DNA from: Eledone cirrhosa
Taxonomy: Eukaryota
DNA: 64,000 bases
Assembly (NCBI GenBank): GCA_964016885.1
Contig: OZ024743.1
Span: forward strand, 369,892,001 to 369,956,000
Reading direction: 5' to 3'
The translations under genes were made by a program, and so were the position numbers. This document shows, one piece after another, positions 23,677 through 52,620 of the stretch; position 1 is the first letter of the stretch; each line of letters begins with the position of its first letter. Below the pieces are notes generated by a model. That model searched no databases. It saw nothing but the letters and a program-made list of their open reading frames with translations, and was not told the DNA's origin.

Positions 23677-24917
23677 TTAGGTTGTCTCACATGAAATGTC
23701 GTATTTGAAATGGAAAGAATAAAATTGTTTTTAAGTGTTTAATTTATTCAAAATATGATCCTTGTTTACATATGACCTTCGCCCAACGTTCCTCTAAGGC
23801 ATATATTCCATCTTCAAAGAATTGATTATCTTTTGTACTGATAAACTGTCCGAATGCTTCAATTACCTCTTCTCTATTTAAGAATGTTTTAATGCGTATA
23901 AAAAGCTGAAAAGGCTTAAATAAGTGATAATCAGTAGGAGAGATATCAAGGGAATAGGGAGGATGTTGCAAAATTTCATAATTCAGACTTTGCAACTTGT
24001 GGACCGTAGCTTGAGAGGTGTGAGGCCGTGCATTATCCTGAAGCAAAATTGGGCCATCTCTATTCACTAGTCTGGGATGTTTCTTCTTCAATATTTCATG
24101 TATACGATCAATTTCCTGACAATATGATGTTGCTGTTACAATATTGCCTTGTTGCAAAAATGAATAATGAATAATCCCCTTTGCAGACCACCATACAGTG
24201 ACCATCAACTTCTTAGGGTGCAATGGTGGTTTCGGGTAGTGTTTCGGTGACTCTTCTGCATCTAACCACTGTCCAGTCCTTCTGCTGTTATCGAAGAGTA
24301 TCCATTTCTCATCACACGTAATGAGTCGATGCAAAAATGGATCTCTTTCGAGCCGAGAAACCAACATTGAGCACACTATAAGACGCCTGTTTCTTTGAAT
24401 CTCATTAAGTTGATGTGGAACAAACCTGTCCATCTTTTTGACTTTTCCAATTTTCTTCAGGTGTCGAGAAACAGTTGAGCGAGATTTCTGGAGCTCAGAT
24501 GAGATTTTTTTGAAACCGTTGTTCTCTGATTTTGTTTAACCAAAGCATTCAATTCATCATGGCGAATTACTGATATGGGTCTCCCTCTCGGTTCATTTTT
24601 AAGGCTCTCATTTCCTGAACGAAATCTTTGAAACCATCTCTGAACAGTTCTGGTGTCAACAGAATCGTTACCAAAAGCTCGCTTAATGTTTCGTAGGGCT
24701 TCTGAGGCCGAGTGACCCATCTTGTATTCGTACAAGAAAACCACTCGGTATTGTTCAGTTGTCAACATTGTCATAGGATTGTGGGTAGCGATTTTGAATG
24801 GTAATATTGTCTGGAATAAAAGATAGTTAAGATTAAACACAAGCTTACACATAATCGAGCTTATAAATGGCTGATAAAGAAACTTATTAAAAATACATTT
24901 CATGTGAGACAACCTAA
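23677..24917 (-). mobile_element. Full-length mariner (DD34D) element, 1241 bp, transposase with one frameshift
   Basis: TIRs TTAGGTTGTCTCACATGAAATGT with TA flanks. HTH region TVQRWFQRFRSG and catalytic motifs TCDEKW, QDNARPH and YSLDISPTDYHLF. ORFs 24457-24936 and 23744-24433 are out of frame. Confidence 0.96.
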
Positions 24918-26926: not shown

Positions 26927-27283
26927 GTAAGAAATAAGTGAAGAAATACTAACGGGATACATTGATAATTTGATAAAGAGTGACTTAAATCTGTTTACTT
27001 GTATGCAGCTTGTTTTTCTTATCTCAGTGTTTTGGGCCTCCTTATCTATCTCCCACTTTAAAGCAAGTCTACACAAGCATCCCTTAAGTCGATGATAAAT
27101 GAGTTGTCAGACATACATACTTAATCAAATGAAATGCAAACACGTTGACATATATGCAAATACATATATCCACTTGGCTATGTGTATATTTGATATTCAC
27201 ACCCACGCCTACATTTTCTTTCTCTTTCATACAGATATATATAGATACATACATGTATACATACATGCATATGTATGTGTGTG

Positions 27284-27363
<80 letters not shown>

Positions 27364-27443
27364 GATAAGCAGAACAAGCAAAATTCAACCAATTTTTTAA
27401 AATAAATTAAAAAATATAATTTAAATATTTACCTATTCTTTTG

Positions 27444-27525
27444 GCCCTGACCGATCGGTTTCGCTTTGTAAAACACCAGAAATCCAATGGATTTCTAATG
27501 GAAAATCAAAGTTCATCAGAGAAGC
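27444..27525 (-). ncRNA. Type I hammerhead ribozyme, family B (GUC site)
   Basis: gcttct-CTGATGA-actttg[long hairpin]caaagc-GAAA-ccgatcgg-TC/agggc, with palindromic stem III ACCGATCGGT. Confidence 0.8.
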
Positions 27526-28055
27526 ATTTTCCTTTCCTAGGGCTAAAGACCCAGGAATGATAAAATATATTGTTATCCGCCAGCTGGCACGGATCTAATA
27601 AGGTCGAAAAGTGACCCCTACGTGAACTGCCCGAGGTAAAAGCGGGAAAAACATAGACGTGTTGTCTATCTCGTTACTAAAAATAGCAGCTAAATAGAAA
27701 CAACAGATTTGTTCTCTACATAACGGAGAATAATAAAAGAAGTTAATATACCCAAGGGTACTAAGTACCCCTGGAAATATATAGGTTGTCTATGATTTAA
27801 GGTTGTTCTATAGTATTAATTTGACATACCAGAACTATAATATTAAGATAAGCAGAACAAGCAAAATTCAACCAATTTTTTTAAATAAATTAAAAAATAT
27901 AATTTAAATATTTACCTATTCTTTTGGCCCTGACCCCGCTTTTACCTCGGGCAGTTCACGTACGGGTCACTTTTCGACCTTATTAGATCCGTGCTAGCTG
28001 GCGGATAACACTATATTTTATCGTTCCTGGGTCTTTAGCCCTAGGAAAGGAAAAT

Positions 28056-28137
28056 GCTTCTCTGATGAACTTTGATTTTCCATTAGAAATCCATTGGATT
28101 TCTGGTGTTTTACAAAGCGAAACCGATCGGTAAGGGC
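28056..28137 (+). ncRNA. Type I hammerhead ribozyme, family B (GUA site)
   Basis: CTGATGA at 28062-28068, GAAA at 28119-28122, then ccgatcggTA/agggc. Confidence 0.78.
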
Positions 28138-28619
28138 GAAAAGGATAGGTAAATATTTAAATTATATTTTTTAATTTATTTTAAAAAATTGGTTGAATTT
28201 TGCTTGTTCTGGTTATCTTAATATTATAGTTCTGGTATGTCAAATTAATACCATAGAACAACCTTAAATCATAGACAACCTATATATTTCCAGGGGTACT
28301 TAGTACCCTAGGGTATATTAACTTCTTTTATATATATATATATATATACACACACAATAATAGAAAAAAATCAAGCTTACCAACTTACATTCATTCCTTC
28401 TACGCCAGTTTCAATATGGTTATAATGGTACATATATTTACAGAACAACTGGAAATTGTTAGTTAAAATTAACTACACTGTACATGTTACCTACAACTCT
28501 TATATTCTCATGAAATTATAAAGAACAAAAATAAGGTTTACCAACTTGACAAGGTTTCGAAAACAAAACCAATATCAAAAGAGTTAGCATAGAGCAAGCA
28601 GTTAGATTAAAAAAGCATT

Positions 28620-31322: not shown

Positions 31323-33291
<1,969 letters not shown>

Positions 33292-33402
33292 TTGAAATAG
33301 GATGAAACGAAATTTCATTTCTCACTCTTAGTACGGCACTTACTTAAATGTAAGTATGTATGTATACGTACATACATATAGGTATACAGACGTACAGTAG
33401 TA

Positions 33403-33450
<48 letters not shown>

Positions 33451-33603
33451 TACATACAGGTACACATATATATGTACGTATCAGTTTAGCGGACGTTTAT
33501 TATAACGCCCGCTTTGTCCGCTTGTAAACAAACGGACAGCCTGATTTATGCCGTACGGTGTTAAGGCAACCACGTCACCTTTTTGTTCAACACTGACACA
33601 GGA

Positions 33604-33646
33604 ACGATGTACTAGTTTCAAGCTTCTTAGCTATCATCAGCACCGT
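33604..33646 (-). ncRNA. Minimal type I hammerhead ribozyme, family A
   Basis: ACGGTG-CTGATGA-tAGCT aaga AGCTt-GAAA-ctag-TA/CATCGT. Confidence 0.85.
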
Positions 33647-33881
33647 ATACCCTTCTGAAAGATGGTTGAACGTTCGAAAGTATATACTTTCCTTATGAAA
33701 ATTAACGGCTGAGCAGCCTAATTTGCATATCGAGTGAGTTCAGTCGGCCAGGCGCACCGAAAACGATAAGTTGAAATAGGATGAAACGAAATTTCATTTC
33801 TCACTCTTAGTACGGCACTTACTTAAATGTAAGTATGTATGTATACGTACATACATGTATGTATACAGACGTACAGTAGTA

Positions 33882-33975
<94 letters not shown>

Positions 33976-34130
33976 TACATACAGGTACACATATATATAT
34001 GTACGTATCAGTTTAGCGGACGTTTATTATAACGCCCGCTTTGTCCGTTTGTAAACAAACGGACAGCCTGATTTATGCCGTACGGTGTTAAGGCAACCAC
34101 GTCACCTTTTTGTTCAACACTGACACAGGA

Positions 34131-34173
34131 ACGATGTACTAGTTTCAAGCTTCTTAGCTATCATCAGCACCGT
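34131..34173 (-). ncRNA. Minimal type I hammerhead ribozyme, family A (tandem copy)
   Basis: Identical to 33604-33646 and 527 nt away. Confidence 0.85.
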
Positions 34174-34408
34174 ATACCCTTCTGAAAGATGGTTGAACGT
34201 TCGAAAGTATATACTTTCCTTATGAAAATTAACGGCTGAGCAGCCTAATTTGCATATCGAGTGAGTTCAGTCGGCCAGGCGCACCGAAAACGATAAGTTG
34301 AAATAGGATGAAACGAAATTTCATTTCTCACTCTTAGTACGGCACTTACTTAAATGTAAGTATGTATGTATACGTACATACATGTATGTATACAGACGTA
34401 CAGTAGTA

Positions 34409-34526
<118 letters not shown>

Positions 34527-34703
34527 TACATACAGGTACACATATATATATGTACGTATTTCGTTTCATCCTATTTCAACTTATCGATTTCGGTGCGCCT
34601 GACCGACTGAACTCACTCGATATGCAAATTAGGCTGCTCAGCCGTTAATTTTCATAAGGAAAGTATATACTTTCGAACGTTCAACCATCTGGCAGAAGGG
34701 TAT

Positions 34704-34746
34704 ACGGTGCTGATGATAGCTAAGAAGCTTGAAACTAGTACATCGT
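34704..34746 (+). ncRNA. Minimal type I hammerhead ribozyme, family A (inverted copy)
   Basis: acggtgCTGATGAtagctaagaagcttGAAActagTAcatcgt. Confidence 0.85.
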
Positions 34747-34901
34747 TCCTGTGTCAGTGTTGAACAAAAAGGTGACGTGGTTGCCTTAACACCGTACGGC
34801 ATAAATCAGGCTGTCCGTTTGTTTACAAACGGACAAAGCGGGCGTTATAATAAACGTCCGCTAAACTGATACGTACATATATATATGTGTACCTGTATGT
34901 A

Positions 34902-35043
<142 letters not shown>

Positions 35044-35549: not shown

Positions 35550-35618
<69 letters not shown>

Positions 35619-36783
35619 AACTCACAGCCTTTCGATTTATCTATCTATGTAAGGTTAGTTACAAAATATCAGATAAGGAATATATTTACCTACATGTATA
35701 TCATGAGCCGTTGTCAAAAGCAATGAGAATTTTATTCAAAATCAATAGTAAATTGAGTTCTATGACCTTATTTGGAGGTAGCTGAAGAACAAACCAATCA
35801 AATGGTTTTATGCCATATGATGTTAAGATGAAATATAACTCACTTTAGTTGGGGTCATGACCCTTTGAAAGGAATGGTTGAATGGTGTTAAACATAGAAT
35901 TACTATAAAGAACCTATGAGGAAAAAGGGATTGTTATATTGATAGTGGAATGTAGATGGTGGAGTGACGTTTAAAAAGGAATGTAAAAATTAAATGTTGA
36001 GTTGTGTTGTATGGAATTTTTAGGTGAATATAAAATATAGAGATAACTAGGATGAATATAGATAGGTAAAGTAATGGTCATAACAAGGAAGGATAGTATA
36101 TTAAAAGATGAAAATTATAATAAGATAATAAAATATAATAATATAATAATATAATATAATGTAATATAATATAGTACAGTATGGTACATTGTATATAGTA
36201 TAATATAGCGTATGATGCATCAAAAAATATAAAATAGTAAATATTTTCAAGTGTGTCTATGTGTAAGTAATCAAACTCAGATAAATGCATGTTGACAAAT
36301 AGTCAAAACGCATAATTTTATTAGATCACAAAAGTACATATATTCACATATATAGATAGAGATGTAATTACATTGATACTCCATTAAAAACATGCATACG
36401 CATACATAGATATAAACATATACATACACATACATACACGCACACAAACATATATACACACTTATACATACATATATACATGTACACACACATACATGTA
36501 CATACACATATACACACACATACACATATACACACATATATATATATATACATATATATATATTCTCTTATCATACATACATACATAGATACATGTATAC
36601 CCATGCAATTACAGGTGGTTATATACCTTGATGCCCTTAGTCAGTAACGCATGAATCTATGGAAGCTAAACAATTAAAAGGTTAAAAAATAAAAAAATAA
36701 ACAGGAAGGCGTATAATTAGGGGAAGGGGATACTAATAAATGGTACGTTATATAGAATTATAGTGAGTTACTATTTAGAATGT

Positions 36784-39410
36784 TTAATTAGGTTTATAGT
36801 ACTTAAATGTTTTTCGTATACGGTGATTACAAGCTATAATCTGTTCTTGTCTTTCATTCAATAATTCGTCGTTGGATTTAGTAATTTCGAAGATCTCCCC
36901 GGAACATAATCTGCATTCTCTCCTGTTCCCAAGATATGGAGTTCTTTGCAGAATGGTATCCCACGATAGCTTGAAATCTATTTTTTTCTTTTTAAAGTTA
37001 TTTACTGCTTCAGCTAAAGATGTGGTGTTAGCTAGTTTAGTATTGTTAAAGCTGTGTGCGTAATATCTTTTCTGAAATGTGTTCGATGTAGATCCTATAT
37101 ATGATTTTTTGGAGTCAGTAGTAGACACAGTGCATTTATATATTACATTATTAATCAAACAGTTGCCATTTAAGGGGCAAACGCTTCTATTTCTGCAATT
37201 ACAACCATACGTAAGATGGTTGTTGGGGGGTACCTACATAATTCACATTAATCATTGAGCTATTCTTATTGTAATTAGTGTTAGCGAGAGAATGAATGCT
37301 GCTTTGTGGGTGATTTAGTGCTGGGATTGTATTGTGATTTTGTGTTATGTTGTTTTTGTGTTGGTGATTTGGGTGGTTGTGTTTTCCAGGTTGAAGGATT
37401 GTATTATTTGTCCTTTTAAAAGGTGCAGTCTTATTTAAATTATGTTGTGGTGGTGTGGTCATATTATTTTTAAATTTATAAATGTTGTAGTTGCTTATTT
37501 TTTGCTGGAGATTGTTTGATGTAGAGTATGAGAATTTAACAGTATACCTGTTAAATATTTGGTGGTATCTGTGGTTTGGTGGAAAATGTTTATGTAGAAT
37601 TTCGAAGAATTTTGGGGAGATTTTCCCAATAGTTTGCAGGTTGAAGGGTGCGTTGTACCATGTTATGTTTCTTTTACGGTTTTTAGTTAAGTTCTTATTC
37701 CCACTTATATTAATGTGCTGTGTTCTAGAAGAGTATTTGTATTTGTGGAATTTGGTAAATTGCAGTGGTTGTATTTAGCGTTATTATTGGGTAGATTATG
37801 AGAGGTTGAATGTTTGGTAGTCATATGTGAGTTGTTACATTGGTCATAGATCGTGTAGTAATAGTTGTTGTGGTTATTCGGTTGTTTTGGTGTGATAGGA
37901 ATGACCCCATTAGGCATTTGTTTCGATGGTATTTTTTGGTGTTTGTAGTTTTTGCTAGGTTTTGTAGTATGGTCCATAGTAGTGTTGGGGATATATGAAT
38001 TTTTTTTATTTATATCCACTTCTAGTTAGGGCTTCGTTGTAGAAGGGTGTATTTTTATAAAATATATCCTCATTGGGAGATAATTTAGAAAGTCTAAGAG
38101 ATATGTTATATAGTAAGTTTTTGAGTATAGAGCCAGGGTGGTTAGAGCGTGAATGTACATAGTGTAGATTCTGGCTGGGTTTGTGGCAAGGTTGATAAAT
38201 ATTCGTAGAGAGGTCTAATGTAACGTCAAGGAAGTTAGCTACTTTTGAGGTGTTTTCAAAGGTGATGTTAAGGTTGTAATAGACCTTGATGAATTTTCTA
38301 ATTTGTTTTTTGTTTTTCTCTATATTAGAATTGCTAAAATTGTTAGATATCAATAGAAAATCATCCCGATAAAGACCACCTTTGAGGTGGGGGAAAAGAG
38401 GAATGAATATTATAGAGGAGAAATAGTCCAACGAGGTCTGTAACTTGAGCAGAGTCCATGGATCCCATCGTTATATCGAATACGTTGTTATATGTGTTTC
38501 TTGTCCAGTGTTCTTCTTGGAAGTTTAGTAAGGTTTTTCTAGCGTGAGTTATGATGTTGATTTCCTCAGTAAATAAATGCGATCTATTTCTGGCGAAGAT
38601 CAGTGCTTTGTTTAAGAGAATTGGAGAAATCGAAGAATAGTAAGAATCGATGTCGAATTGTATGAATGAAGCTGAGTTTTTATTCTCGATGTTAGTGAAC
38701 CATTCAATAACCTGGGAAGTGTTATCCCATAATGGAAGTGTTACAAATTTTCTAATTTGCTGAATGATTCGATCAATAATTTTCTTGCTGATAGTACCGA
38801 TATCAGATTTTAATGGGCATATCAGTCTAATAGATGGGTTCGAATTAAAGTCAGATTTGTGGTCCTTCAGGTTGAAAGTGCGGGCTTTTAGGTGTGAAAG
38901 GCTCCGTCCTATCTTCAATATGGAGTTTTTTTTACTATATCACATGATATGTTGTTCAAGGATGTCAGTGCGGTGGTGCTGGTTTTCTTATAGTTTTTTC
39001 TAAGTTCTTTATAAACGAACTGGTTATATTTATCGATGTCCATATGGTATAGATTACCAGTTTTGTCAGAATGGACATGGATCTTGTTTGAATTTTTCAG
39101 TTGCAGAAGGGTAGAGTCTAATCCCTTTTGGAATTCAGATTTGTGTTTCCTGAACTTTATGTCTTTAATTATGTTCAGTAGGGCGCTGTCAAAATTTTCA
39201 AGTTGAATATTAGGAGGATTTTTGTATGTGTTGAATCCATAGCGGTACTTCTTTTCATTTGTATTGGTTTTGTTGTCAAAATGATAGGCTATCCAACGCA
39301 TTCTCCTAATAAACTGGTTAGTTTTTTGTATGAGCAGGTGTAGATATTTGTCTTTAGGTGGAATCGGAATATTCTTCAACGAAGAACCCAAATATTGTTT
39401 TTCCTTTGTG
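36784..39410 (-). pseudogene. PLE reverse transcriptase / GIY-YIG endonuclease ORF, fragmented
   Basis: ORF pieces 38915-39391, 38361-38918, 38006-38431 and 36784-37158, separated by frameshifts and an Asn/His/Thr-rich linker. Confidence 0.9.
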
Positions 39411-39720
39411 ATGCAGGAATTAGATAAAAGAAGAGCTCAACTAAATATTATAATCACAGAAGTGGAGACAATTATGAAAAAATATATTGAAGGAGCAAGA
39501 TGCACAGAAATATCCACGGTTAGTTGTGGGGTCTAGTCTGCATGAAGAACTCAATGTAATCCATATGTTGAAAATGTTGTAGGTTAAAATAAATCCCGGA
39601 AAACAATAAAACATCAAAAGGAAAACAGAGTCATGATATAAGTAAAAACAATGAAATAAAAATTCAAGTCATTAGAAATATACTTCACTGCTTTACGATC
39701 ATTTCTAGGTGATAATAATA

Positions 39721-39815
39721 CATCGTACGCATATTTCGTTATCGATCTATGTAGGGTTAGTTACAAAATATCAGATAAGGAATATATTTACCTACATCTA
39801 TATCATCAGCCGTTG
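39721..39815 (-). ncRNA. Hammerhead-like motif in the PLE pseudo-LTR (long stem II, damaged stem I)
   Basis: caacgg-CTGATGA-tatagATGTAGG...CCTACATagatcgataac-GAAA-tatgcg-TA-cgatg. Confidence 0.55.
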
Positions 39816-40024
39816 TCAAAAGCAATGAGAATTTTATTCAAAATCAATAGTAAATAGTAAATTATATCATGATTCTGTTTTCCTTTTGATGTTTTATTGT
39901 TTTCCGGGATTTGTTTTAACCTACAACATTTTCAACATATGAATTACATTGAGTTCTTCATGCAGACTAGAACCCACAACTAACCGTGGATATCTCTGTG
40001 TATATATAGATATATACATATACA

Positions 40025-40071
<47 letters not shown>

Positions 40072-40481
40072 TAATCTAGCTGTCGTCTGTTCTACAGTGT
40101 GGATGTCATTCACTTCGCACAGAAGTTTTGTTCAAATTTATTGAGGAAATTTTGTGAGTTCAAACTTAATTTTGATACAATTGTGTAGCTTGACCCTCCG
40201 TCTGAACTGTCAGGCGGTGGGTCAGCTCATCTTTACCCCTCCTAGAGGTGAAAAACCTGTTTTAAAAAATTTTGTGTAAAAAATTTCAATCGTCTAACAG
40301 AAATGTTAAACGCAGCGAACGAAAATAGTGGTGGGGGGACAGCGGTAAGAGTTGTAAGCTCGCACGCTTTAGTCCTCCCTTCCTTCCCAACTAACGTCAT
40401 AGAGAAGGAAGGAAAAATGAAAATAAAAACGGACGAATCTGCGGAGGAAAAATCAAATGACGAAAACAACGAAAAAAAAAA

Positions 40482-42179
40482 TTGGAAAAATTGCATGACA
40501 ATACTAATAACACAAACACAGACACAACAAACAAAAAAATAACAGTTGAAAATAACATCATATCAGAAAACAAAGCAGACGACAAGATTTCTTTTGCACA
40601 GAAAACAAAGAAATCTTTGACTTATATAGCGGAAAACATTTCAGATGTGGTACGAAGGATCACGGACGCAAAACAATACATAAGTGAAGGTGAGAATGGT
40701 ATTTTATTGGTAAAAATGCCTCAAGAATTCACGAAAGACATTGAAAGCCGAACGGTCAAGTTTCGGACCATCAACAACAGTACAAAAAAACCTGAACAGC
40801 CTTCTCAAGCAGATATCAAAACAGTACTCGCAGAAGTACTGAATGAAACAACTTTCATAAGAAAAGACAGACTGTATGGAAGCCTAGCAATTATCATGAA
40901 GAACGAATCGGCGGCAAAAAAATGTGCTTTGTCACCGATTCGTTCAAAAAATTTCACCTTTTATCCATCTTATATGGGAAAAAAAACTCAACGCATATGG
41001 CTGGATGCAATGATGCCAGGTGTGGACTACTGCTGGCTCATAGCTGGCTTCATCGATCCAGTGAATGACAACGTGATTTCCATTGGGAAAACCACAGGCA
41101 ATGCGTTCAGTGGAACAGGTATAGAGCTGGTAGTACAAATGAAGCCTGAACGCATCGCCCAAATACCCGACAGAATCCTATTAGAGGACCACGGGTATAT
41201 AAACATTAGCGTGGAGGGGAGAAGGCCGTCCTGCCATATCTGTGCAGGCAGAGGGCACCTGAAGGCCGCTTGTCCACAACTCAACAAAAAGAAAACTCTG
41301 CTACCAACACCAGCTCCACCACCACCACCACAACAGATAAACAAACAACAAAACTCAGTCCCACCCAACCCGTCCCTCAGTAACACCACAACACCACCAC
41401 AACACAAACAGTCACAACACATTACCCCAAAACAAAATACAGGCCCACCCAACCTCTCACTCAATAAAACAACACAACCACCGCAGACACAACACACAAC
41501 ACAGTCTAACATAGTGACATCCATCTCCCCCACAAAGAAAACCAACACGGAAACATTACCAGCAAACATACCTCTTCCCTCCAACACTGAAGATAACCCA
41601 ACGAATTCGGAGGAAGAAACGGAGTCCTTCAGACAGATTAAAAGGAAAAAAAGAAAACATGTGCAAAACACACAAGGACAAACAACCCCCACCCAAATCG
41701 CAACACAATCTAACAAAACAGAAAACACCCCTCCAGCAACAAACAAAACCAAACCTGCCCCTCCCCTCTTCGAAACACTCACACCATCGGAAAAAAAGAC
41801 ATTACACTATACTTACATCAACAGAAACAATAATAAATTAAATGAACTCATATACAATAATCCTTCGGTACAAACCGAAGGTGTAAACTTTGTTTCATCA
41901 GAAAACCACCCACATTTAAAACTAATAAAAATCCCAATGAACCTCTACCAAAAACTAAAAAAGGATTTTAAGGAGGACGTAGGACCACCCTCTGTCAAAC
42001 CCATAAACCGCGTCCTACTAAAAAGCTTTCCCCCTCCCCTTCCCCTCCCCAACACAACTCCAAACACCCCAACCCCACCACACACCGACGACCCCACACC
42101 ACCACAAGACACCCCTTCACCCAACACCCCCGACCCCATGGAAGTCGTGCAACCCGAACCCCGGGAAGCGGAAAGGTAG
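40482..42179 (+). CDS. LINE ORF1 protein with CCHC zinc knuckle; probable true start at ATG 40303 with a frameshift in the A-run 40472-40481
   Basis: CHICAGRGHLKAAC knuckle, Pro/Thr-rich tail and KRKKRK basic patch. Confidence 0.85.
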   Translation: MEKLHDNTNNTNTDTTNKKITVENNIISENKADDKISFAQKTKKSLTYIAENISDVVRRITDAKQYISEGENGILLVKMPQEFTKDIESRTVKFRTINNSTKKPEQPSQADIKTVLAEVLNETTFIRKDRLYGSLAIIMKNESAAKKCALSPIRSKNFTFYPSYMGKKTQRIWLDAMMPGVDYCWLIAGFIDPVNDNVISIGKTTGNAFSGTGIELVVQMKPERIAQIPDRILLEDHGYINISVEGRRPSCHICAGRGHLKAACPQLNKKKTLLPTPAPPPPPQQINKQQNSVPPNPSLSNTTTPPQHKQSQHITPKQNTGPPNLSLNKTTQPPQTQHTTQSNIVTSISPTKKTNTETLPANIPLPSNTEDNPTNSEEETESFRQIKRKKRKHVQNTQGQTTPTQIATQSNKTENTPPATNKTKPAPPLFETLTPSEKKTLHYTYINRNNNKLNELIYNNPSVQTEGVNFVSSENHPHLKLIKIPMNLYQKLKKDFKEDVGPPSVKPINRVLLKSFPPPLPLPNTTPNTPTPPHTDDPTPPQDTPSPNTPDPMEVVQPEPREAER

Positions 42180-42212
42180 GTCTCTACACTCTCCTTTGGC
42201 TCTGCCGCCCAC

Positions 42213-45200
42213 ATGGATGTGTTAAGAGTAGGATGTTTGAATGCACGTGGCCTGGGCTCAACTTGGAAGCAAGCAAAGCTTCTAAATGACCTCAGGTCAT
42301 GTAGTATAAATGTAATGGTTATCTGTGAGACTCGAATCAGCGTCATGCGGCAGCTGGCCCCCACCTTCGATGACTTTGAGGTGCATGCATCTCTCTGTCA
42401 ACCTGGAGGTGGGGGTGGGGTTGTCGTGCTGCTGCAAAAACACCTGGGTCTTGCCGTACAGGTTGTGCACTCGGACCCGGAGGGTCGTTTGTTGGTGCTA
42501 GACGTTGGCAGTAGTGAAAGTGCGGCCTTGAGACTGGTCGCCGTCTACTCCCCTTTCGGAGCTGAACGGCCCGACTTCTTCCAGCGTTTGGAGACTTTTC
42601 TGGGAACGTCGCGTTCCCTGCTTCTAGCGGGGGATTGGAATGACATCCTGGATGCACGTTGGGACTATGCAGGAGCATGTCCTAATAGAGGGGGGTGTAA
42701 CAGCCTCAAGGGGTTACTCGACCGTTTTAACTTGGTCGATAGATATCGACTAGATTTTCCAACTGTGCCTACCTGGACTTGGAGAAACCACAGTGGTCAA
42801 TCTAGATCGTACTTAGATAGATTCTTAGTTAGAAGTAAGGATAGGGACATATTAAGCTGTCCAGAAATGCGCACGGTTGGCTACACGGATCACAAATTAG
42901 TGACCTGCGTGGTCAATCTCGAGAAAACACATAGACAGGGTCCCGGTTACTGGAAACTTAATTTGTCTTTACCGGCAAAAGAGACTTACAGAAACCGGAT
43001 TAGCAGATTAGTTAAGGAGAGGTTGACGGGTGCAATCGTCAACAACCGATGGTGGGCATCTCTCAAAAGAGAGATTAGAACAGAATCAATAAGTTATAGC
43101 AAGATGTTAGCTGCCAATAGGAATAGAAACGAGAAAGAATTAACAGGTAAATTAGAAGAGGCAATCAAGAGCGAAGATGTGGCCAGAGTGCTGGCATCGA
43201 GGACGGCCTTGAACCAGTTTTTCGATGCAAAGCATGAAGGCTGCGTCATTCGAAGTAAAATACGTGCTCTAGGTAATGAGGGGGCCAAAGCCGTTGGATG
43301 GGCCCGCGTGACAGAAGCTAAAAGTGGAAATCGATCCACCATCCGGTCGTTGCAAGACGAAGATGGACGAGTGATCCGGGAGCCTAAGCAGATGTGCGAG
43401 GCCTTTCAAAAGCACTTTGCCCGATTGTTCGGGGGAGGCGAGGGTCCGGGCCGGGGCGTGGATTTCGGTCCATACCTCGACGGCCTGCCGCGTCTCTCGA
43501 ACAAAGAGGCAGAGTCCTGCGAGGGACCAATCTCGGCTGATGAGATCGGAGATGCGCTGAGCCAATGCAGCAGACGCAAATCTCCAGGTCTCGATGGTAT
43601 ACCTTACGAACTTTATTTAGCAATGCCGGTCTTCTTCTCCGAACTCCTCGAAGCGGTCTACTGCAATTGGCAGCAGAACGGGAGAATTCCTTGTTCTGTA
43701 GCCAAGGGCGTAGTCACGCTGGTGAGGAAGGACGAGAACAAGGGGGATAGTATAAATAATTTTCGGCCCATAACCCTGCTAAACACAGAGTTAAAGATTT
43801 TGGCCAAGGTGTTAGCAAAGAGGTTGGCGCTTGTCGTGGGTGGCCTGGTGGGAGATGCGCAGACATGTGCTATCCCATCCAGGTCCATTCACGATAACCT
43901 CCACCTCATGCGATACATCATAGAGAGGGTTGGCAACAAACCCGGCTTCGGTGGGGCCCTGATCAACTTGGATCAGTCTAAGGCCTTCGATAGGGTCGAC
44001 CATGGTTACCTGGATGCGGTGCTAGCGGCGGCTGGGTTCGGTCCTGTTTTCAGAGGCTGGATCACTGCCCTACATAGCAACCACATCTGTTCTAGGATCA
44101 AGGTGAACGGCTACCTTTCGAAGCCGTTCGAAATCACACGATCCATTCGACAGGGGTGCCCTCTCTCCTCCCTTCTGTACGTATTGACTCTCGAGCCTTT
44201 ACTGAGGAAGTTGGAGTTGTTGCAGGGTATCCCCCTGGAACCAGGATTGAGCAAAGCGGTGTCGGCCTACGCCGATGACGTAACAGTAATGGTATCAACC
44301 GACTCGGAGATCGAGGCGATCGGTACCTTACTGGAGGAGTACGAAAGGTTGTCAGGAGCGAAACTGAACCGGGAAAAATCCATCGGGCTGCAACTCGGAA
44401 CGTGGAGAGGCAAACCGATGCCTCCTGACGGTGTCGTCGGACACTGGACGGAGGGCCCGGTAAAGTTGCTTGGGGTCTGGTTTGGACCGGACCTCCAGGT
44501 GGAAAAGAACTGGAACGAGGTTACGAACAAGGTGTTTGCACTAACCCAGAAATGGGCCAAGTGTAAGCTGTCCCTAAAAGGCCGGGCGGAGGTGGCGAAC
44601 ATTCACATAGCGTCCGTCACTTACTACCGCCTGACTGTCGTGCCTTGCCCTAAGGAAACACTCACCACCATGGAACGCATGCTCTTCCAATTTCTTTGGA
44701 AGAAGCGTCCTCCTATGGTGAGAAGATCCATCTGCTGCCAACAACCTTCGAAAGGAGGGCTGGGGATGCCGTGGTTGATGATGCGTAGGCACGCATTAAG
44801 GCTACGGCACCTACAGGTATTCCTCACTGGTCAACCGGTGTGGGCTCCGTTCGTGAAACGAGCCTTTCCGAGACTCGTCTCACTCACCGAGCTACAGTCC
44901 TGGGTCAAGCAAAGATCCGGAAAACTGGGAGACTGGCACACTGAGTGTGCTCAGGCGCTCAGGGCTCTCTGGCAAGCGGGCCGGGCCATCGGTGGAGAAT
45001 CCACCTCATCATTCTATAGAGGGCTGGTGGCTAGCAGGGGCGATGACACCCTTGGAGAGTCGCTGGACATGGAAGAAGACGAACTGGCCAGCCTGTTCGG
45101 TAGGACTTTCGGCCCAGGACCAATGGACAACTTCCAGAAGTCACTGGCCTGGCAGTGCTACCGAGGGGCTCTACCCGTTCGAGAGAGGCTCTACAGACAC

Positions 45201-45650
45201 GGGCGCCCGGGCAGGGATCCCTCAAAAAAGATTTGCCCTAGATGCGTGCGTCACGAAGAAACCGTGGCGCACGCATTGGTGCAATGTCCGGGCGTGGCTG
45301 ACCTGTGGGGCTACGCCGAACAACTGCTGTCGCGGGTGGCGCCGATTAAATTGACCGCCGAGTCCGTGATGACAATCAAACCGCCTCCCCTCTTCACAAA
45401 GGAAGCAAAGGCGGTTTTTCTGTGCGTAATAGCCATGTTGAAAGAGGTTGTTTGGTGGACACGATTGAAAGGTCTGAGGTCAGGCAACTTCCTCTCTGGC
45501 CATAGTCTGGTCTACTTCTTCCGATATCACTTCGGAAGAAGGATAAGAATGGAGAGAGAGGTGCTTGGCCACAGGCAGTTTTATGAAAGGTGGGTGATAG
45601 TGGCGAGAATGGCTCGTGTAAATGGGCCTTCTCTGTATACCATCCTGTAG
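42213..45650 (+). CDS. LINE ORF2: AP endonuclease, reverse transcriptase and C-terminal Cys/His domain, intact 1145 aa
   Basis: LNARGL, GDWN, YLDRF, TDHK, GYWKLN, SPGLDG, FRPITLLN, DQSKAFDRVDH, QGCPLS, AYADD and CPRC..EETVAHALVQC motifs. Confidence 0.97.
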   Translation: MDVLRVGCLNARGLGSTWKQAKLLNDLRSCSINVMVICETRISVMRQLAPTFDDFEVHASLCQPGGGGGVVVLLQKHLGLAVQVVHSDPEGRLLVLDVGSSESAALRLVAVYSPFGAERPDFFQRLETFLGTSRSLLLAGDWNDILDARWDYAGACPNRGGCNSLKGLLDRFNLVDRYRLDFPTVPTWTWRNHSGQSRSYLDRFLVRSKDRDILSCPEMRTVGYTDHKLVTCVVNLEKTHRQGPGYWKLNLSLPAKETYRNRISRLVKERLTGAIVNNRWWASLKREIRTESISYSKMLAANRNRNEKELTGKLEEAIKSEDVARVLASRTALNQFFDAKHEGCVIRSKIRALGNEGAKAVGWARVTEAKSGNRSTIRSLQDEDGRVIREPKQMCEAFQKHFARLFGGGEGPGRGVDFGPYLDGLPRLSNKEAESCEGPISADEIGDALSQCSRRKSPGLDGIPYELYLAMPVFFSELLEAVYCNWQQNGRIPCSVAKGVVTLVRKDENKGDSINNFRPITLLNTELKILAKVLAKRLALVVGGLVGDAQTCAIPSRSIHDNLHLMRYIIERVGNKPGFGGALINLDQSKAFDRVDHGYLDAVLAAAGFGPVFRGWITALHSNHICSRIKVNGYLSKPFEITRSIRQGCPLSSLLYVLTLEPLLRKLELLQGIPLEPGLSKAVSAYADDVTVMVSTDSEIEAIGTLLEEYERLSGAKLNREKSIGLQLGTWRGKPMPPDGVVGHWTEGPVKLLGVWFGPDLQVEKNWNEVTNKVFALTQKWAKCKLSLKGRAEVANIHIASVTYYRLTVVPCPKETLTTMERMLFQFLWKKRPPMVRRSICCQQPSKGGLGMPWLMMRRHALRLRHLQVFLTGQPVWAPFVKRAFPRLVSLTELQSWVKQRSGKLGDWHTECAQALRALWQAGRAIGGESTSSFYRGLVASRGDDTLGESLDMEEDELASLFGRTFGPGPMDNFQKSLAWQCYRGALPVRERLYRHGRPGRDPSKKICPRCVRHEETVAHALVQCPGVADLWGYAEQLLSRVAPIKLTAESVMTIKPPPLFTKEAKAVFLCVIAMLKEVVWWTRLKGLRSGNFLSGHSLVYFFRYHFGRRIRMEREVLGHRQFYERWVIVARMARVNGPSLYTIL

Positions 45651-45864: not shown

Positions 45865-45914
<50 letters not shown>

Positions 45915-46989
45915 ATGGAAAAAATGAAATTTCATTTCTCACTCTTAGTACGGCTGATACTTAAATATAAGTATGTATACGTACATACATATATGTATAC
46001 AGACGTACAGTAGTATGTATATACATACATACATGCACACATATATATGTACGTATAGGTTTACCGAACATTTATTATAATGTTCGGTTTGTTTGTAAAC
46101 AAACAGCCCGAATTAAGCCGTACAATGTTCAGCAACCATCGTTGCCCCTTTGTTCAACACTGACAAAGGAACGATGAACTAGTTTCTAGCTTATTAGATG
46201 TCATCAGCACCGTATACCTTCCTGTCAGTCGATTGAACGTTTGAAAGTATATACTTTCCTTATGCATATTAACGGCTGAGCAGCCTAATTTGCATATCGA
46301 GTGAGTTAGTCGGCTGGGCGTACCGAAAACGATAAATGGAAAAAATGAAATTTCATTTCTCACTCTTAATGTTACTGATACTTAAATATAAGTATGTATA
46401 CGTACATACATATCTGTATACAGACGTACAGTAGTATGTATATACATACATACATGCACACATATATATGTACGTATGGGTTTACCGAACATTTATTATA
46501 ATGTTCGGTTTGTTTGTAAACAAACAGCCCGAATTAAGCCGTATACATTAAGTACGTATTAAGTACTTATGCATACTTATATTTAAGTATCAGCCGTACT
46601 AAGAGTGAGAAATGAAATTTCATTTTTTTCCATTTATCGATTTCGACTAACTCACTCGATATGCAAATTAGGCTGCTCAGCCGTTAATATGCATAAGGAA
46701 AGTATATACTTTCAAACATTCAATCGACTGACAGGAAGGTATACGGTGCTGATGACAGCTAATAAGCTAGAAACTAGTTCATCGTTCCTTTGTCAGTGTT
46801 GAACAAAAGGGCAACGATGGTTGCCGAACACTGTACGGCTTAATTCGGGCTGTTTGTTTACAAACAAACCGAACATTATAATAAATGTTCCGTAAACCTA
46901 TACGTACATATATATATATGTGTGCATGTATGCATGTTTATACATACTACTGTACGTCTGTATACATATATGTATGTACGTATACATAT
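45915..46989 (-). mobile_element. Family A hammerhead repeat, insertion 2 (421-bp unit, partial tandem copy and inverted copy)
   Basis: Unit 45915-46335, partial copy to about 46544, inverted copy about 46572-46989. HHRs at 46171-46213 (-) and 46743-46785 (+), both with a GUU site. Confidence 0.88.
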
Positions 46990-48189: not shown

Positions 48190-48652
48190 ACACTAATGGC
48201 CCGTCCGTCTGGCGTACGGCTAGGTATACATGCCCCCACCACTCTATTGCAAAGATACTACACACCGTCCCGTGTCACATTGTCCTTCTGACTCAATCTC
48301 TCTCTCTGAATAACTAACACTTTAATTGTATCTCTCTCTGTCTAACGGCCTCTCTCTCTCTCTCTTTTCCCCTCTCTCTGTAGATGTGTGTGCGTGTGTT
48401 TGTGTATGTGTATGTGTGTTTATGTATGTGTGTATGTGGGTGTGTGTGTTACTTATGCGAGCGACGAAAGAAAAAGTATGTGGGATACATACATTATTAT
48501 ATTTGTCAGGGTTGCCTTTTGATGTATGTATTACCTCAAAAGGCAACCCTGACAAATATAATAATGTATGTATCCCACATACTTTTTCTTTCGTATGTAT
48601 TACCTGCTGTCATATAGAGAGTGAAGAGAGACAGAGAGTAAAGCAGTTACAT

Positions 48653-51674: not shown

Positions 51675-51720
<46 letters not shown>

Positions 51721-51723
<3 letters not shown>

Positions 51724-52620
51724 GGAAAAAATGAAACGAAATTTCATTTCCCACTCTTAGTACGGCTGTTACTTAAATATAAGTATGTATACGTACATAC
51801 ATATATGTATACAGACGTACAGTAGTATATATATATATATACATACATGCACACACATATATATATATGTACGTATGGATTCACCGAACATTTATTATAA
51901 TGCTCGGTGTGTTTGTAAACAAACATCCGGTATTAAGCCGTAGTGTCCAGCAACCATCGTTGCTCGTTTGTTCAACACTGACAAAGGAACGCTGTACTAG
52001 CTTCAAGCTTATTAGCTATCGGCAGCAACGTATACCTTCCTGCGAAGATTGTTGAACGTATATACTTACCTTATGCATGTTAACGGCTGAGTAGCCCAAT
52101 TTGCATATCGAGTGGGTTAATCGGCCGGGTGCTCCGAAAATGATAAACGGAAAAAATGAAACGAAATTTCATTTCCCACTCTTAGTACGGCTGTTACTTA
52201 AATATAAGTATGTATACTAAGAGTGGGAAATGAAATTTCGTTTCATTTTTTCGTTTATCGTTTTCGGTGCACCCGGCCGTTTAACCCACTCGATATGCAA
52301 ATTGGGCTACTCAGCTGTTAACATACATAAGGTAAGTATATACGTTCAACAATCTGGCAGGAAGGTATATGTTGCTGACGATAGCTAATAAGCTTGAAAC
52401 TAGTACAGCGTTCCTTTATATGTGTTGAACAAACGAGCAACGATGGTTGCTGGACACTACGGATTAATACCGGATGTTTGTTTATAAACACACCGAGCAT
52501 TATAATAAATGTTCGGTGAATCCATACGTACATATCTATATATGTGCATGTATGTATATATATATATAAATACTACTGTACGTCTGTATACATATATGTA
52601 TGTACATGTACATACTTATA
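51721..52620 (-). mobile_element. Family A hammerhead repeat, insertion 3 (425-bp unit, partial tandem copy and inverted copy)
   Basis: Unit 51721-52145, partial copy to about 52215, inverted copy about 52214-52620. HHR at 51989-52031 (-) has a mutated core (CTGCCGA/GAAG). HHR at 52369-52411 (+) is intact (CTGACGA/GAAA/GTA). Confidence 0.88.

What the first reader, a model, noticed from the sequence alone, without database searches (positions are those of the whole stretch)
27359..28328. Family B: unrelated 483-bp hammerhead repeat with extended stem II; tandem arm ends at the cleavage site
Seen: the same tandem-plus-inverted layout in (TA)n as family A, but with different sequence. The HHR has a 10-nt palindromic stem III (ACCGATCGGT) and a long stem II containing AGAAATCC/GGATTTCT. 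The partial tandem copy switches to the inverted arm at about 27935, within 4 nt of the predicted GUC cleavage site (27931/27932). The inverted arm reads through the unit junction. Inference: reverse transcription of a ribozyme-processed multimeric or circular RNA, followed by a template switch.
Basis: partly seen in the sequence, partly recalled or inferred. Interest (0 to 1): 0.75.

Follow-up and report, generated by a model that had tools for sequence, protein, structure and literature searches.

The report
Two-primer insertion of a ribozyme repeat
This is one copy of a small non-coding repeat carrying a predicted self-cutting RNA; across its family the two mirror-image arms end at two fixed points, one each, which likely records a Penelope-type enzyme copying a likely circular RNA from both cut DNA strands, while this copy's stop at the cutting site is not shared by most other copies.

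Summary
The layout is real: a 483-nt type I hammerhead unit, a partial tandem copy ending 3-4 nt past the predicted cut, and an inverted arm, in (TA)n. The reading 'arm ends at the cleavage site, then template switch' fails: in 105 family loci only 4 of 151 arms stop within 5 nt of the cut (4.7 expected; 16 vs 8.4 within 10 nt), and neither arm here can template the other. The firm rule is at the outer ends: 153 of 162 arms end at one of two sites 107 nt apart (S1, S2), and inverted copies carry one of each (50 of 50 typed; 43 of 44 in a young sister family). A young Hydra-type Penelope element of this genome shows the same pairing and shares the hairpin beside S2. Insertion-private variants fill every unit of both arms, pointing to one circular RNA template (inferred). 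Ribozyme core is conserved and stems covary over five families; cleavage and RNA untested. Verdict: non-LTR retrozyme, likely moved by Penelope twin priming. The scan noted this two-site pairing before on other repeats of this genome.

The parts
27235..27358 (.). Left (TA)n / (TATG)n target tract
   Evidence: sequence
27357..27935 (-). S1 arm: 577-nt cDNA arm, outer end at start site S1 (monomer position 92, 3-4 nt overlap with TA), one full monomer plus 94 nt
27449..27931 (-). One cut-to-cut monomer, 483 nt, predicted highly structured (z -5.1 vs shuffles); no coding frame of 120 aa or more
27444..27525 (-). Type I hammerhead, copy 1: weak bulged stem I, core CUGAUGA (27519-27513), long stem II (5 bp, internal loop, 12 bp), GAAA, palindromic stem III (27459-27450), GUC cut 27449/27448
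   Evidence: cleavage not tested
27712..27730 (-). Hairpin H3 (CUCC...GAG) just 3' of S2, shared with sister families and with the autonomous Hydra-type element; predicted protein-binding element
27746..27835 (-). Hairpins H1 (3' of S1) and H2 (5' of S2) inside the S1-S2 interval
27932..27935 (.). Head-to-head junction: S1 arm stops at monomer 480 (3-4 nt past the cut 27932/27931), S2 arm stops at monomer 286; 1 nt shared
27935..28331 (+). S2 arm: 397-nt cDNA arm, monomer 286-483 then 1-199, outer end at start site S2
28056..28137 (+). Type I hammerhead, copy 2, GUA cut 28132/28133
28225..28331 (+). Penelope-type 'tail' (S1-S2 interval, 107 nt) present at this end only
   Evidence: tail as defined in PMC11167929
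28330..28348 (.). Right (TA)n target tract

Best explanation
This is a dispersed copy of a non-coding hammerhead repeat (non-LTR retrozyme) whose two head-to-head arms end at two fixed sites, one each, and it was likely inserted by a Hydra-type Penelope reverse transcriptase that cut both strands of a (TA)n tract and primed two cDNAs on what was likely one circular RNA. Shown: layout, fixed ends S1/S2, their pairing, scattered inner breakpoints, precise read-through of the cut, identity of units within an insertion, ribozyme covariation, shared layout and H3 hairpin with an autonomous element. Inferred: tandem transcripts self-cleave (probably as a dimer through the palindromic stem III) and are ligated to circles; a protein dimer binds the hairpins 3' of S1 and S2; each nicked strand pairs 3-4 nt of TA with one site and is extended round the circle; both cDNAs stop at mostly random points and their 3' ends are joined, giving the inversion. 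Odds: two-strand priming at S1 and S2 about 0.9; Hydra-type donor about 0.8; circle as template about 0.65.
For: Ends: 153 of 162 B arms and 105 of 107 B2 arms end at S1 or S2, only 1 of 162 at the unit's longest TA run. Pairing: 50 S1+S2, 0 S1+S1, 0 S2+S2 among 59 B junctions (9 with one end untyped); 43 S1+S2, 1 S1+S1 among 46 B2 junctions (2 untyped; sample anchored on S1). PLE-X (ORF with RWR, SDKT, CxCx5C, GIY-YIG = Hydra marks of PMC8557442) ends at two sites 84 nt apart, S1+S2 in 11 of 19 loci, S1+S1 in 1, the rest single-ended or untyped. A matrix from three non-coding families ranks PLE-X's S2 first and S1 second in 4,340 nt (1 of 60 shuffles scores as high). Two B arms are joined head-to-head to Penelope coding arms (L083/L092, L055/L139). 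Two start sites bounding the tail, both-strand extension and a predicted dimer were shown in vitro for one Penelope element (PMC11167929). Circle: no indel at 149 of 149 B2 and 104 of 105 B cut junctions; variants fixed in all units and mostly both arms (L172 12/12 and 13/13, L191 11/11, L198 6/6, L221 4/4, 3/3, 3/3; 24 fixed events against 2 partly shared ones); arms overlap on the monomer in 51 of 59 and 36 of 46 junctions; fixed variants are skewed to sense-strand A>G (9 of 18 vs 6 of 78 unit-private changes in B2, P=1e-4; 25 of 114 vs 25 of 292 in B, P=6e-4). Ribozyme: core differs 1.5% vs 5.2% elsewhere; 13 of 24 pairs change on both sides over 12 sequences of five families, far above slid controls.
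Against: No RNA, cleavage or circle was observed. No autonomous element whose terminal repeat aligns with B over its length was found; the donor is assigned by shared layout and one short hairpin chosen after I had seen PLE-X. Identical units also follow from a linear transcript of an already uniform array. The excess of stops after a full turn is weak and post hoc (15 vs 7.3, P=0.008 among seven windows). The window ribozyme has a bulged G-U-rich stem I and an A.C mismatch at 10.1-11.1, and its free-energy fold does not form the active shape; 8 of 9 retrozyme dimers failed to cleave in Li et al. 2026. The two chimeras could be separate insertions with loss of the TA between them. B shows a real, small excess of stops within 10 nt of the cut (16 vs 8.4). 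The A>G skew has no ADAR neighbour bias, is not significant for private variants of B, and selection for G-U pairs would give it too. The window's two arms differ at three sublineage-marking sites around the cut, unexplained.
Confidence: 0.7

Rival explanations
1. Same two-strand priming by a Penelope enzyme, but on uncleaved linear multimer transcripts of genomic arrays (one long RNA or two RNAs); the ribozyme would act elsewhere in the cycle.
For: Unprocessed RNA was the main substrate in vitro and ribozyme mutants inserted normally (PMC11167929). Precise read-through of the cut and overlapping arms fit. B/Penelope chimeras imply two RNAs at times.
Against: New variants would be passed on as mosaics; the shared markers 172G, 233T, 436T of B2 are fixed in all 9 multi-pass loci that carry them, and private variants fill up to 13 of 13 units. 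Core conservation shows cleavage matters to spread.
Confidence: 0.2
2. One reading: reverse transcription runs to a ribozyme-cut 5' end and then switches template or folds back, making the inverted arm.
For: This copy stops 3-4 nt from the cut; B has 16 vs 8.4 stops within 10 nt; a few junctions are symmetric at palindromes (L042, L044 at stem III, L019 at stem II). Self-priming at palindromes was proposed for rotifer Penelope (PMC3846280).
Against: No excess within 5 nt, none in B2; symmetric junctions 6 of 50 and 1 of 43, not above chance; neither arm contains the other in 41 of 93 loci, this one included; it does not explain the S1+S2 rule.
Confidence: 0.05
3. A satellite or MITE-like DNA repeat amplified by unequal crossing-over and fold-back repair, the ribozyme being incidental.
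For: Tandem uniform units and AT-rich context; local amplification is proposed in Li et al. 2026.
Against: Fixed strand-specific outer ends shared with an autonomous retroelement, 5'-truncation-like length spread, longer arrays in the younger family (mean run 548 vs 253 nt), strand-skewed variants.
Confidence: 0.05

Closest known systems
Metazoan non-LTR retrozymes (Cervera and de la Pena 2020, PMC7229834: passages and Discussion read; Li et al. 2026, 10.64898/2026.07.22.740005: parts 1-3 of 5 read, supplements closed)
   Same: Non-coding tandem units with one type I hammerhead each, low GC, dispersed, proposed circle template and Penelope donor.
   Different: Unit 483 nt (their range about 150-450, up to 972 in Li); stem II of about 50 nt that Rfam misses; head-to-head arms and fixed paired ends are not described in the parts read ('inverted' 0 hits in PMC7229834); this locus has under two full tandem ribozymes, so Li's 'active' rule would skip it.
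EN+ Penelope-like insertions, Hydra clade (Craig et al. 2021, PMC8557442: passages read; Arkhipova et al. 2013, PMC3846280: passages read)
   Same: Partial tandem plus inverted 5'-truncated copy, tail at one end only, (TA)n target, hammerhead near the end.
   Different: No ORF; tail 107 nt rather than 30-40; the papers call the tail optional or often one-sided, here it is a near-strict one-of-each rule; junctions are mostly asymmetric, not palindromic.
Poseidon of Anolis in vitro (Frangieh et al. 2024, PMC11167929: parts 1-2 of 4 read)
   Same: Two internal start sites that bound the tail; both DNA strands cut and extended; binding region 3' of the start sites.
   Different: They saw no strand difference in start site and no homology to the target; here the two strands take different sites and 3-4 nt of TA overlap is seen; template is non-coding.
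L1 twin priming (recalled, no call)
   Same: Two target strands prime two cDNAs that are joined head-to-head.
   Different: L1's second priming site is not fixed and arms barely overlap; here both sites are fixed and arms overlap on the monomer in 87 of 105 junctions.

Membership tests
Non-LTR retrozyme | Short non-coding unit in tandem or partial tandem copies, dispersed | tested here: met
   483-nt unit, arms up to 1,605 nt in B and over 5,700 nt in B2; 249 exact matches of a 23-mer on many contigs; no ORF of 120 aa or more
Non-LTR retrozyme | One type I hammerhead per unit | tested here: met
   Core motifs, three stems, covariation over five families, core conservation; not detected by Rfam
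Non-LTR retrozyme | No LTR, PBS or PPT | tested here: met
   Ends abut (TA)n directly at S1/S2; no dedicated PBS search was run, judged from the end sequences
Non-LTR retrozyme | Self-cleavage of the RNA | not testable with these tools
   Needs in vitro transcription
Non-LTR retrozyme | Expressed linear and circular monomer RNA | tested here: inconclusive
   Only indirect genomic signs of a monomer template
Non-LTR retrozyme | Two consecutive full ribozyme units ('active' rule of Li et al.) | tested here: not met
   Not met by this locus (one full ribozyme per arm); met by other B loci such as L021, L028 and by B2 arrays, so it bears on this copy's activity, not the family
Penelope-mobilised non-autonomous element | Tandem plus inverted layout with one-sided tail | tested here: met
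   50 of 50 and 43 of 44 typed junctions
Penelope-mobilised non-autonomous element | Co-existing autonomous Penelope with the same target and end layout | tested here: met
   PLE-X, 97-99% identical copies, long open frames, same S1/S2 layout and H3
Penelope-mobilised non-autonomous element | Sequence descent from the terminal repeat of a named autonomous family | tested here: inconclusive
   No end-to-end alignment with PLE-X or other Penelope copies among 222 fetched loci and the window; the genome was not searched exhaustively
Autonomous Penelope-like element | RT plus GIY-YIG ORF | tested here: not met
   No ORF in the unit

The most novel reading that the evidence does not exclude
A Hydra-type Penelope RT dimer binds one ribozyme-made RNA circle at two hairpins and copies it round and round from both cut DNA strands, one subunit always at S1 and the other at S2, writing A-to-I edits of that single circle into every unit of both arms; a family of at least five long-stem-II retrozymes has kept only this docking signal and the ribozyme.
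Probability: 0.3. Interest if true: 0.72.

Novelty: new variant of a known kind. Interest (0 to 1): 0.5.

Why it matters
How animal retrozyme circles get back into the genome, and why Penelope insertions carry inverted arms and a one-sided tail, are open questions in the papers read. The one-of-each end rule, the uniform units and the shared hairpin give a concrete mechanism and name the reagents to test it: a young non-coding family (B2, about 99.5% identical copies) and a young autonomous Hydra-type element. The long stem II also shows a ribozyme form that Rfam misses.

Tried and rejected
Breakpoint-at-cut rule: rejected. Fold-back or template switch as general route: rejected. 'The window's two arms come from two different subfamily RNAs': considered, dropped after because both arms share 159C, 182T, 325C, 344C and differ only in a 13-nt patch. 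Between-arm divergence higher than within-arm: not found (198 of 6,919 vs 192 of 8,278). Relation to family A: none detected. Rfam hammerhead models: no hit. Pfam on PLE-X frames: no meaningful hit; clade assigned from motifs in PMC8557442, no tree built. Search for a parent Penelope with a B-like terminal repeat: none among fetched loci. Sequencing runs: no RNA holder listed; three contig sets of one sample only show many related copies. Junction microhomology (mostly 0-4 nt) was not tested against chance. Target-site duplication cannot be read in (TA)n. Stops near S1 or S2: 32 vs 20.3, P=0.01, post hoc, weak. Literature searches for twin priming in Penelope, rolling circle with inversion since 2023, Penelope structure since 2024, retrozyme with ADAR and extended stem II (no listed paper holds the phrase) gave no paper describing these points; subscription papers and bioRxiv supplements were not visible. 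Rows dropped: duplicates L016, L024, L029; repeat arms of L015; edge arm of L147; L157 and L172 censored; L067 dropped only; homopolymer positions excluded.

Full report
Observation. The region holds a 483-nt unit (27359-27841), a 94-nt partial tandem copy (to 27935) and an inverted arm (27935-28331), between TA tracts. I numbered the monomer from the predicted cut (position 1 = 27931, minus strand). In these terms both arms point their RNA 3' ends outward: the left arm ends at position 92 (S1) and runs back 577 nt to 480; the right arm ends at 199 (S2) and runs back 397 nt to 286. Family A is not detectably related.

Family sample. The own genome (3.0 Gb) gave 2,293 first-look candidates, 40 scored, 249 exact matches to a 23-mer near S1, of which the first 100 were listed, and 94 to a ribozyme 20-mer. 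I analysed 105 B loci: 27, 64 and 14. A sister family B2 (457-nt unit, 319 of 443 aligned positions identical to B, copies mostly 98-100% identical) turned up in L133; I analysed 64 B2 loci picked by their S1 end from the first 100 of 128 listed matches. Three further relatives, B3-B5, were seen in flanks.

Is it a ribozyme? Over 12 sequences of five families the core letters CUGA, GA, AA and the U before the cut are invariant; 88.7% of cells pair, 13 of 24 pairs change on both sides, against at most 6 in slid controls (related sequences, so not a probability). Within B the core differs at 22 of 1,426 cells against 2,709 of 52,045 elsewhere, and the cut base is A in 120, C in 20, other in 5. 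The palindrome gives a weak hairpin (-0.9) but a strong self-duplex (-16.6 kcal/mol), as in dimeric hammerheads (PMC4209133, PMC3088659, passages read). Against high activity: bulged stem I, A.C at 10.1-11.1, and a free fold 5.7 kcal/mol better than the active shape. Rfam misses it. Cleavage is untested.

With delayed entry for how each locus was picked, arms stop within 5 nt of the cut 4 times against 4.7 expected in B (151 arms) and 5 against 3.2 in B2 (108); within 10 nt, 16 against 8.4 (P=0.013) in B and 7 against 6.1 in B2. About nine in ten B arms stop elsewhere. Arms cross the cut 134 and 156 times, without indels in 104 of 105 and 149 of 149 readable junctions. The window arm itself carries 3 templated bases beyond the cut. 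A switch onto the new cDNA cannot make this locus, since the cDNA ends at 92 while the inverted arm continues to 199; neither arm contains the other in 23 of 50 B and 18 of 43 B2 loci, and symmetric junctions are not above chance.

The rule that holds. Outer ends fall at S1 or S2 in 153 of 162 B arms and 105 of 107 B2 arms, and only once at the unit's longest TA run, so they are not just the best match to the target. Of 59 head-to-head B junctions 50 are S1+S2, none S1+S1 or S2+S2, 9 have one untyped end; of 46 in B2, 43 are S1+S2, 1 is S1+S1, 2 untyped. The S1-S2 interval is the Penelope 'tail', which in vitro lies between two RT start sites used by a protein that cuts and extends both strands and is predicted to be a dimer (PMC11167929, parts 1-2 read). 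A one-sided tail and inverted arm are known for Penelope elements (PMC8557442, PMC3846280, passages read); a strict one-of-each rule in a non-coding retrozyme was not found in my searches.

The likely donor. A young autonomous element (PLE-X; 40 scored copies 97-99% identical) has frames up to 680 aa with RWR, SDKT, a CxCx5C linker and GIY-YIG, the marks given for the (TA)n-targeting Hydra clade (no tree built). It carries its own hammerhead and ends at two sites 84 nt apart, S1+S2 in 11 of 19 loci, S1+S1 in one whose flanks are also duplicated, the rest single or untyped. B, B2, B4 and PLE-X fold alike: start site, hairpin, hairpin, start site, hairpin. A matrix of the last hairpin from B, B3 and B4 ranks PLE-X S2 first and S1 second in 4,340 nt; 1 of 60 shuffles reaches the top score, and the motif was chosen after seeing PLE-X. 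In L083/L092 a B arm ending at S2 is joined head-to-head to a PLE-X-like arm ending at its S1; L055/L139 joins a B S1 arm to another Penelope; separate insertions are not excluded. No parent with an alignable terminal repeat was found.

The template. In 47 multi-pass B2 loci, variants are either fixed in every unit, usually in both arms (24 events, up to 13 of 13 units), or sit in a single unit; only 2 are shared by part of an array. Arms overlap on the monomer in 87 of 105 junctions. Within-arm and between-arm differences are alike in B. This is what one circle copied by two active sites gives; a linear transcript of a uniform array gives it too but needs an earlier single-unit bottleneck. 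Fixed variants are skewed to sense-strand A>G (B2 9 of 18 vs 6 of 78, P=1e-4; B 25 of 114 vs 25 of 292, P=6e-4; A>G over T>C P=0.012 and 0.021), which marks an RNA-level process: A-to-I editing or selection for G-U pairs; there is no neighbour bias and the skew is not significant for B's private variants. Stops after a full turn are about twofold high but post hoc. Cervera and de la Pena proposed exactly such circle-templated tandem cDNA and Penelope as donor without showing it; Li et al. support descent from Penelope ends by phylogeny.

Unexplained. The window's S2 arm shares lineage alleles with the S1 arm but matches another sublineage at positions 483, 6 and 12: conversion, a recombined RNA or an assembly error.

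Earlier notes of this scan (read after my reading was written down) report the same two-site, twin-primed layout in other repeats of this genome; they are not support. This family itself gave no look-alike note, and no note held the words of the editing idea.

Verdict. Real feature; new variant of a known kind (non-LTR retrozyme with a long-stem-II hammerhead, Penelope-type paired ends). First reading partly supported. Interest 0.5.

Noticed in passing
window 35617-39900 (-): Broken Hydra-like Penelope element (frameshifts and stops; 52% identical to PLE-X over 164 aa; GIY-YIG at 36784-37233) with its own hammerhead-like motif with a very long stem II near 39809, ending in (TA)n.
   Followed up: partly
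window 40461-45650 (+): LINE with open 572-aa and 1,156-aa frames (AP endonuclease, RT, zf-RVT).
   Followed up: no
window 33289-35039, 45906-46943, 51718-52572: Family A hammerhead repeats with the same tandem-plus-inverted layout; ends not typed here.
   Followed up: partly
L133:7641-8288; L157; L172; L191: Family B2, a very young 457-nt sister retrozyme with arrays over 5.7 kb and a perfect 5-bp stem I; best candidate for bench tests.
   Followed up: yes
L211:4372-5018; L219:1120-2790; L051:2400-3001; L040:1-700: Families B3, B4 (485-nt tandem) and B5 with related long-stem-II hammerheads.
   Followed up: partly
L092:6300-9125; L139:5300-6830; L179; L056: Insertions whose second arm is a different element (Penelope coding arm or another repeat ending in TA).
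   Followed up: partly
window 28132-28144: Three sublineage-marking differences between the two arms cluster in 13 nt around the cut.
   Followed up: partly
L197: The only S1+S1 insertion in B2; one arm is exactly two units (914 nt).
   Followed up: no
window 23744-24535 (-): Mariner-type transposase fragment.
   Followed up: no
window 48463-48595: Near-perfect hairpin of about 60 bp, possibly a small two-armed insertion.
   Followed up: no
L139:840-4570: A second, different Penelope-like element with long open frames next to the chimeric B copy.
   Followed up: no
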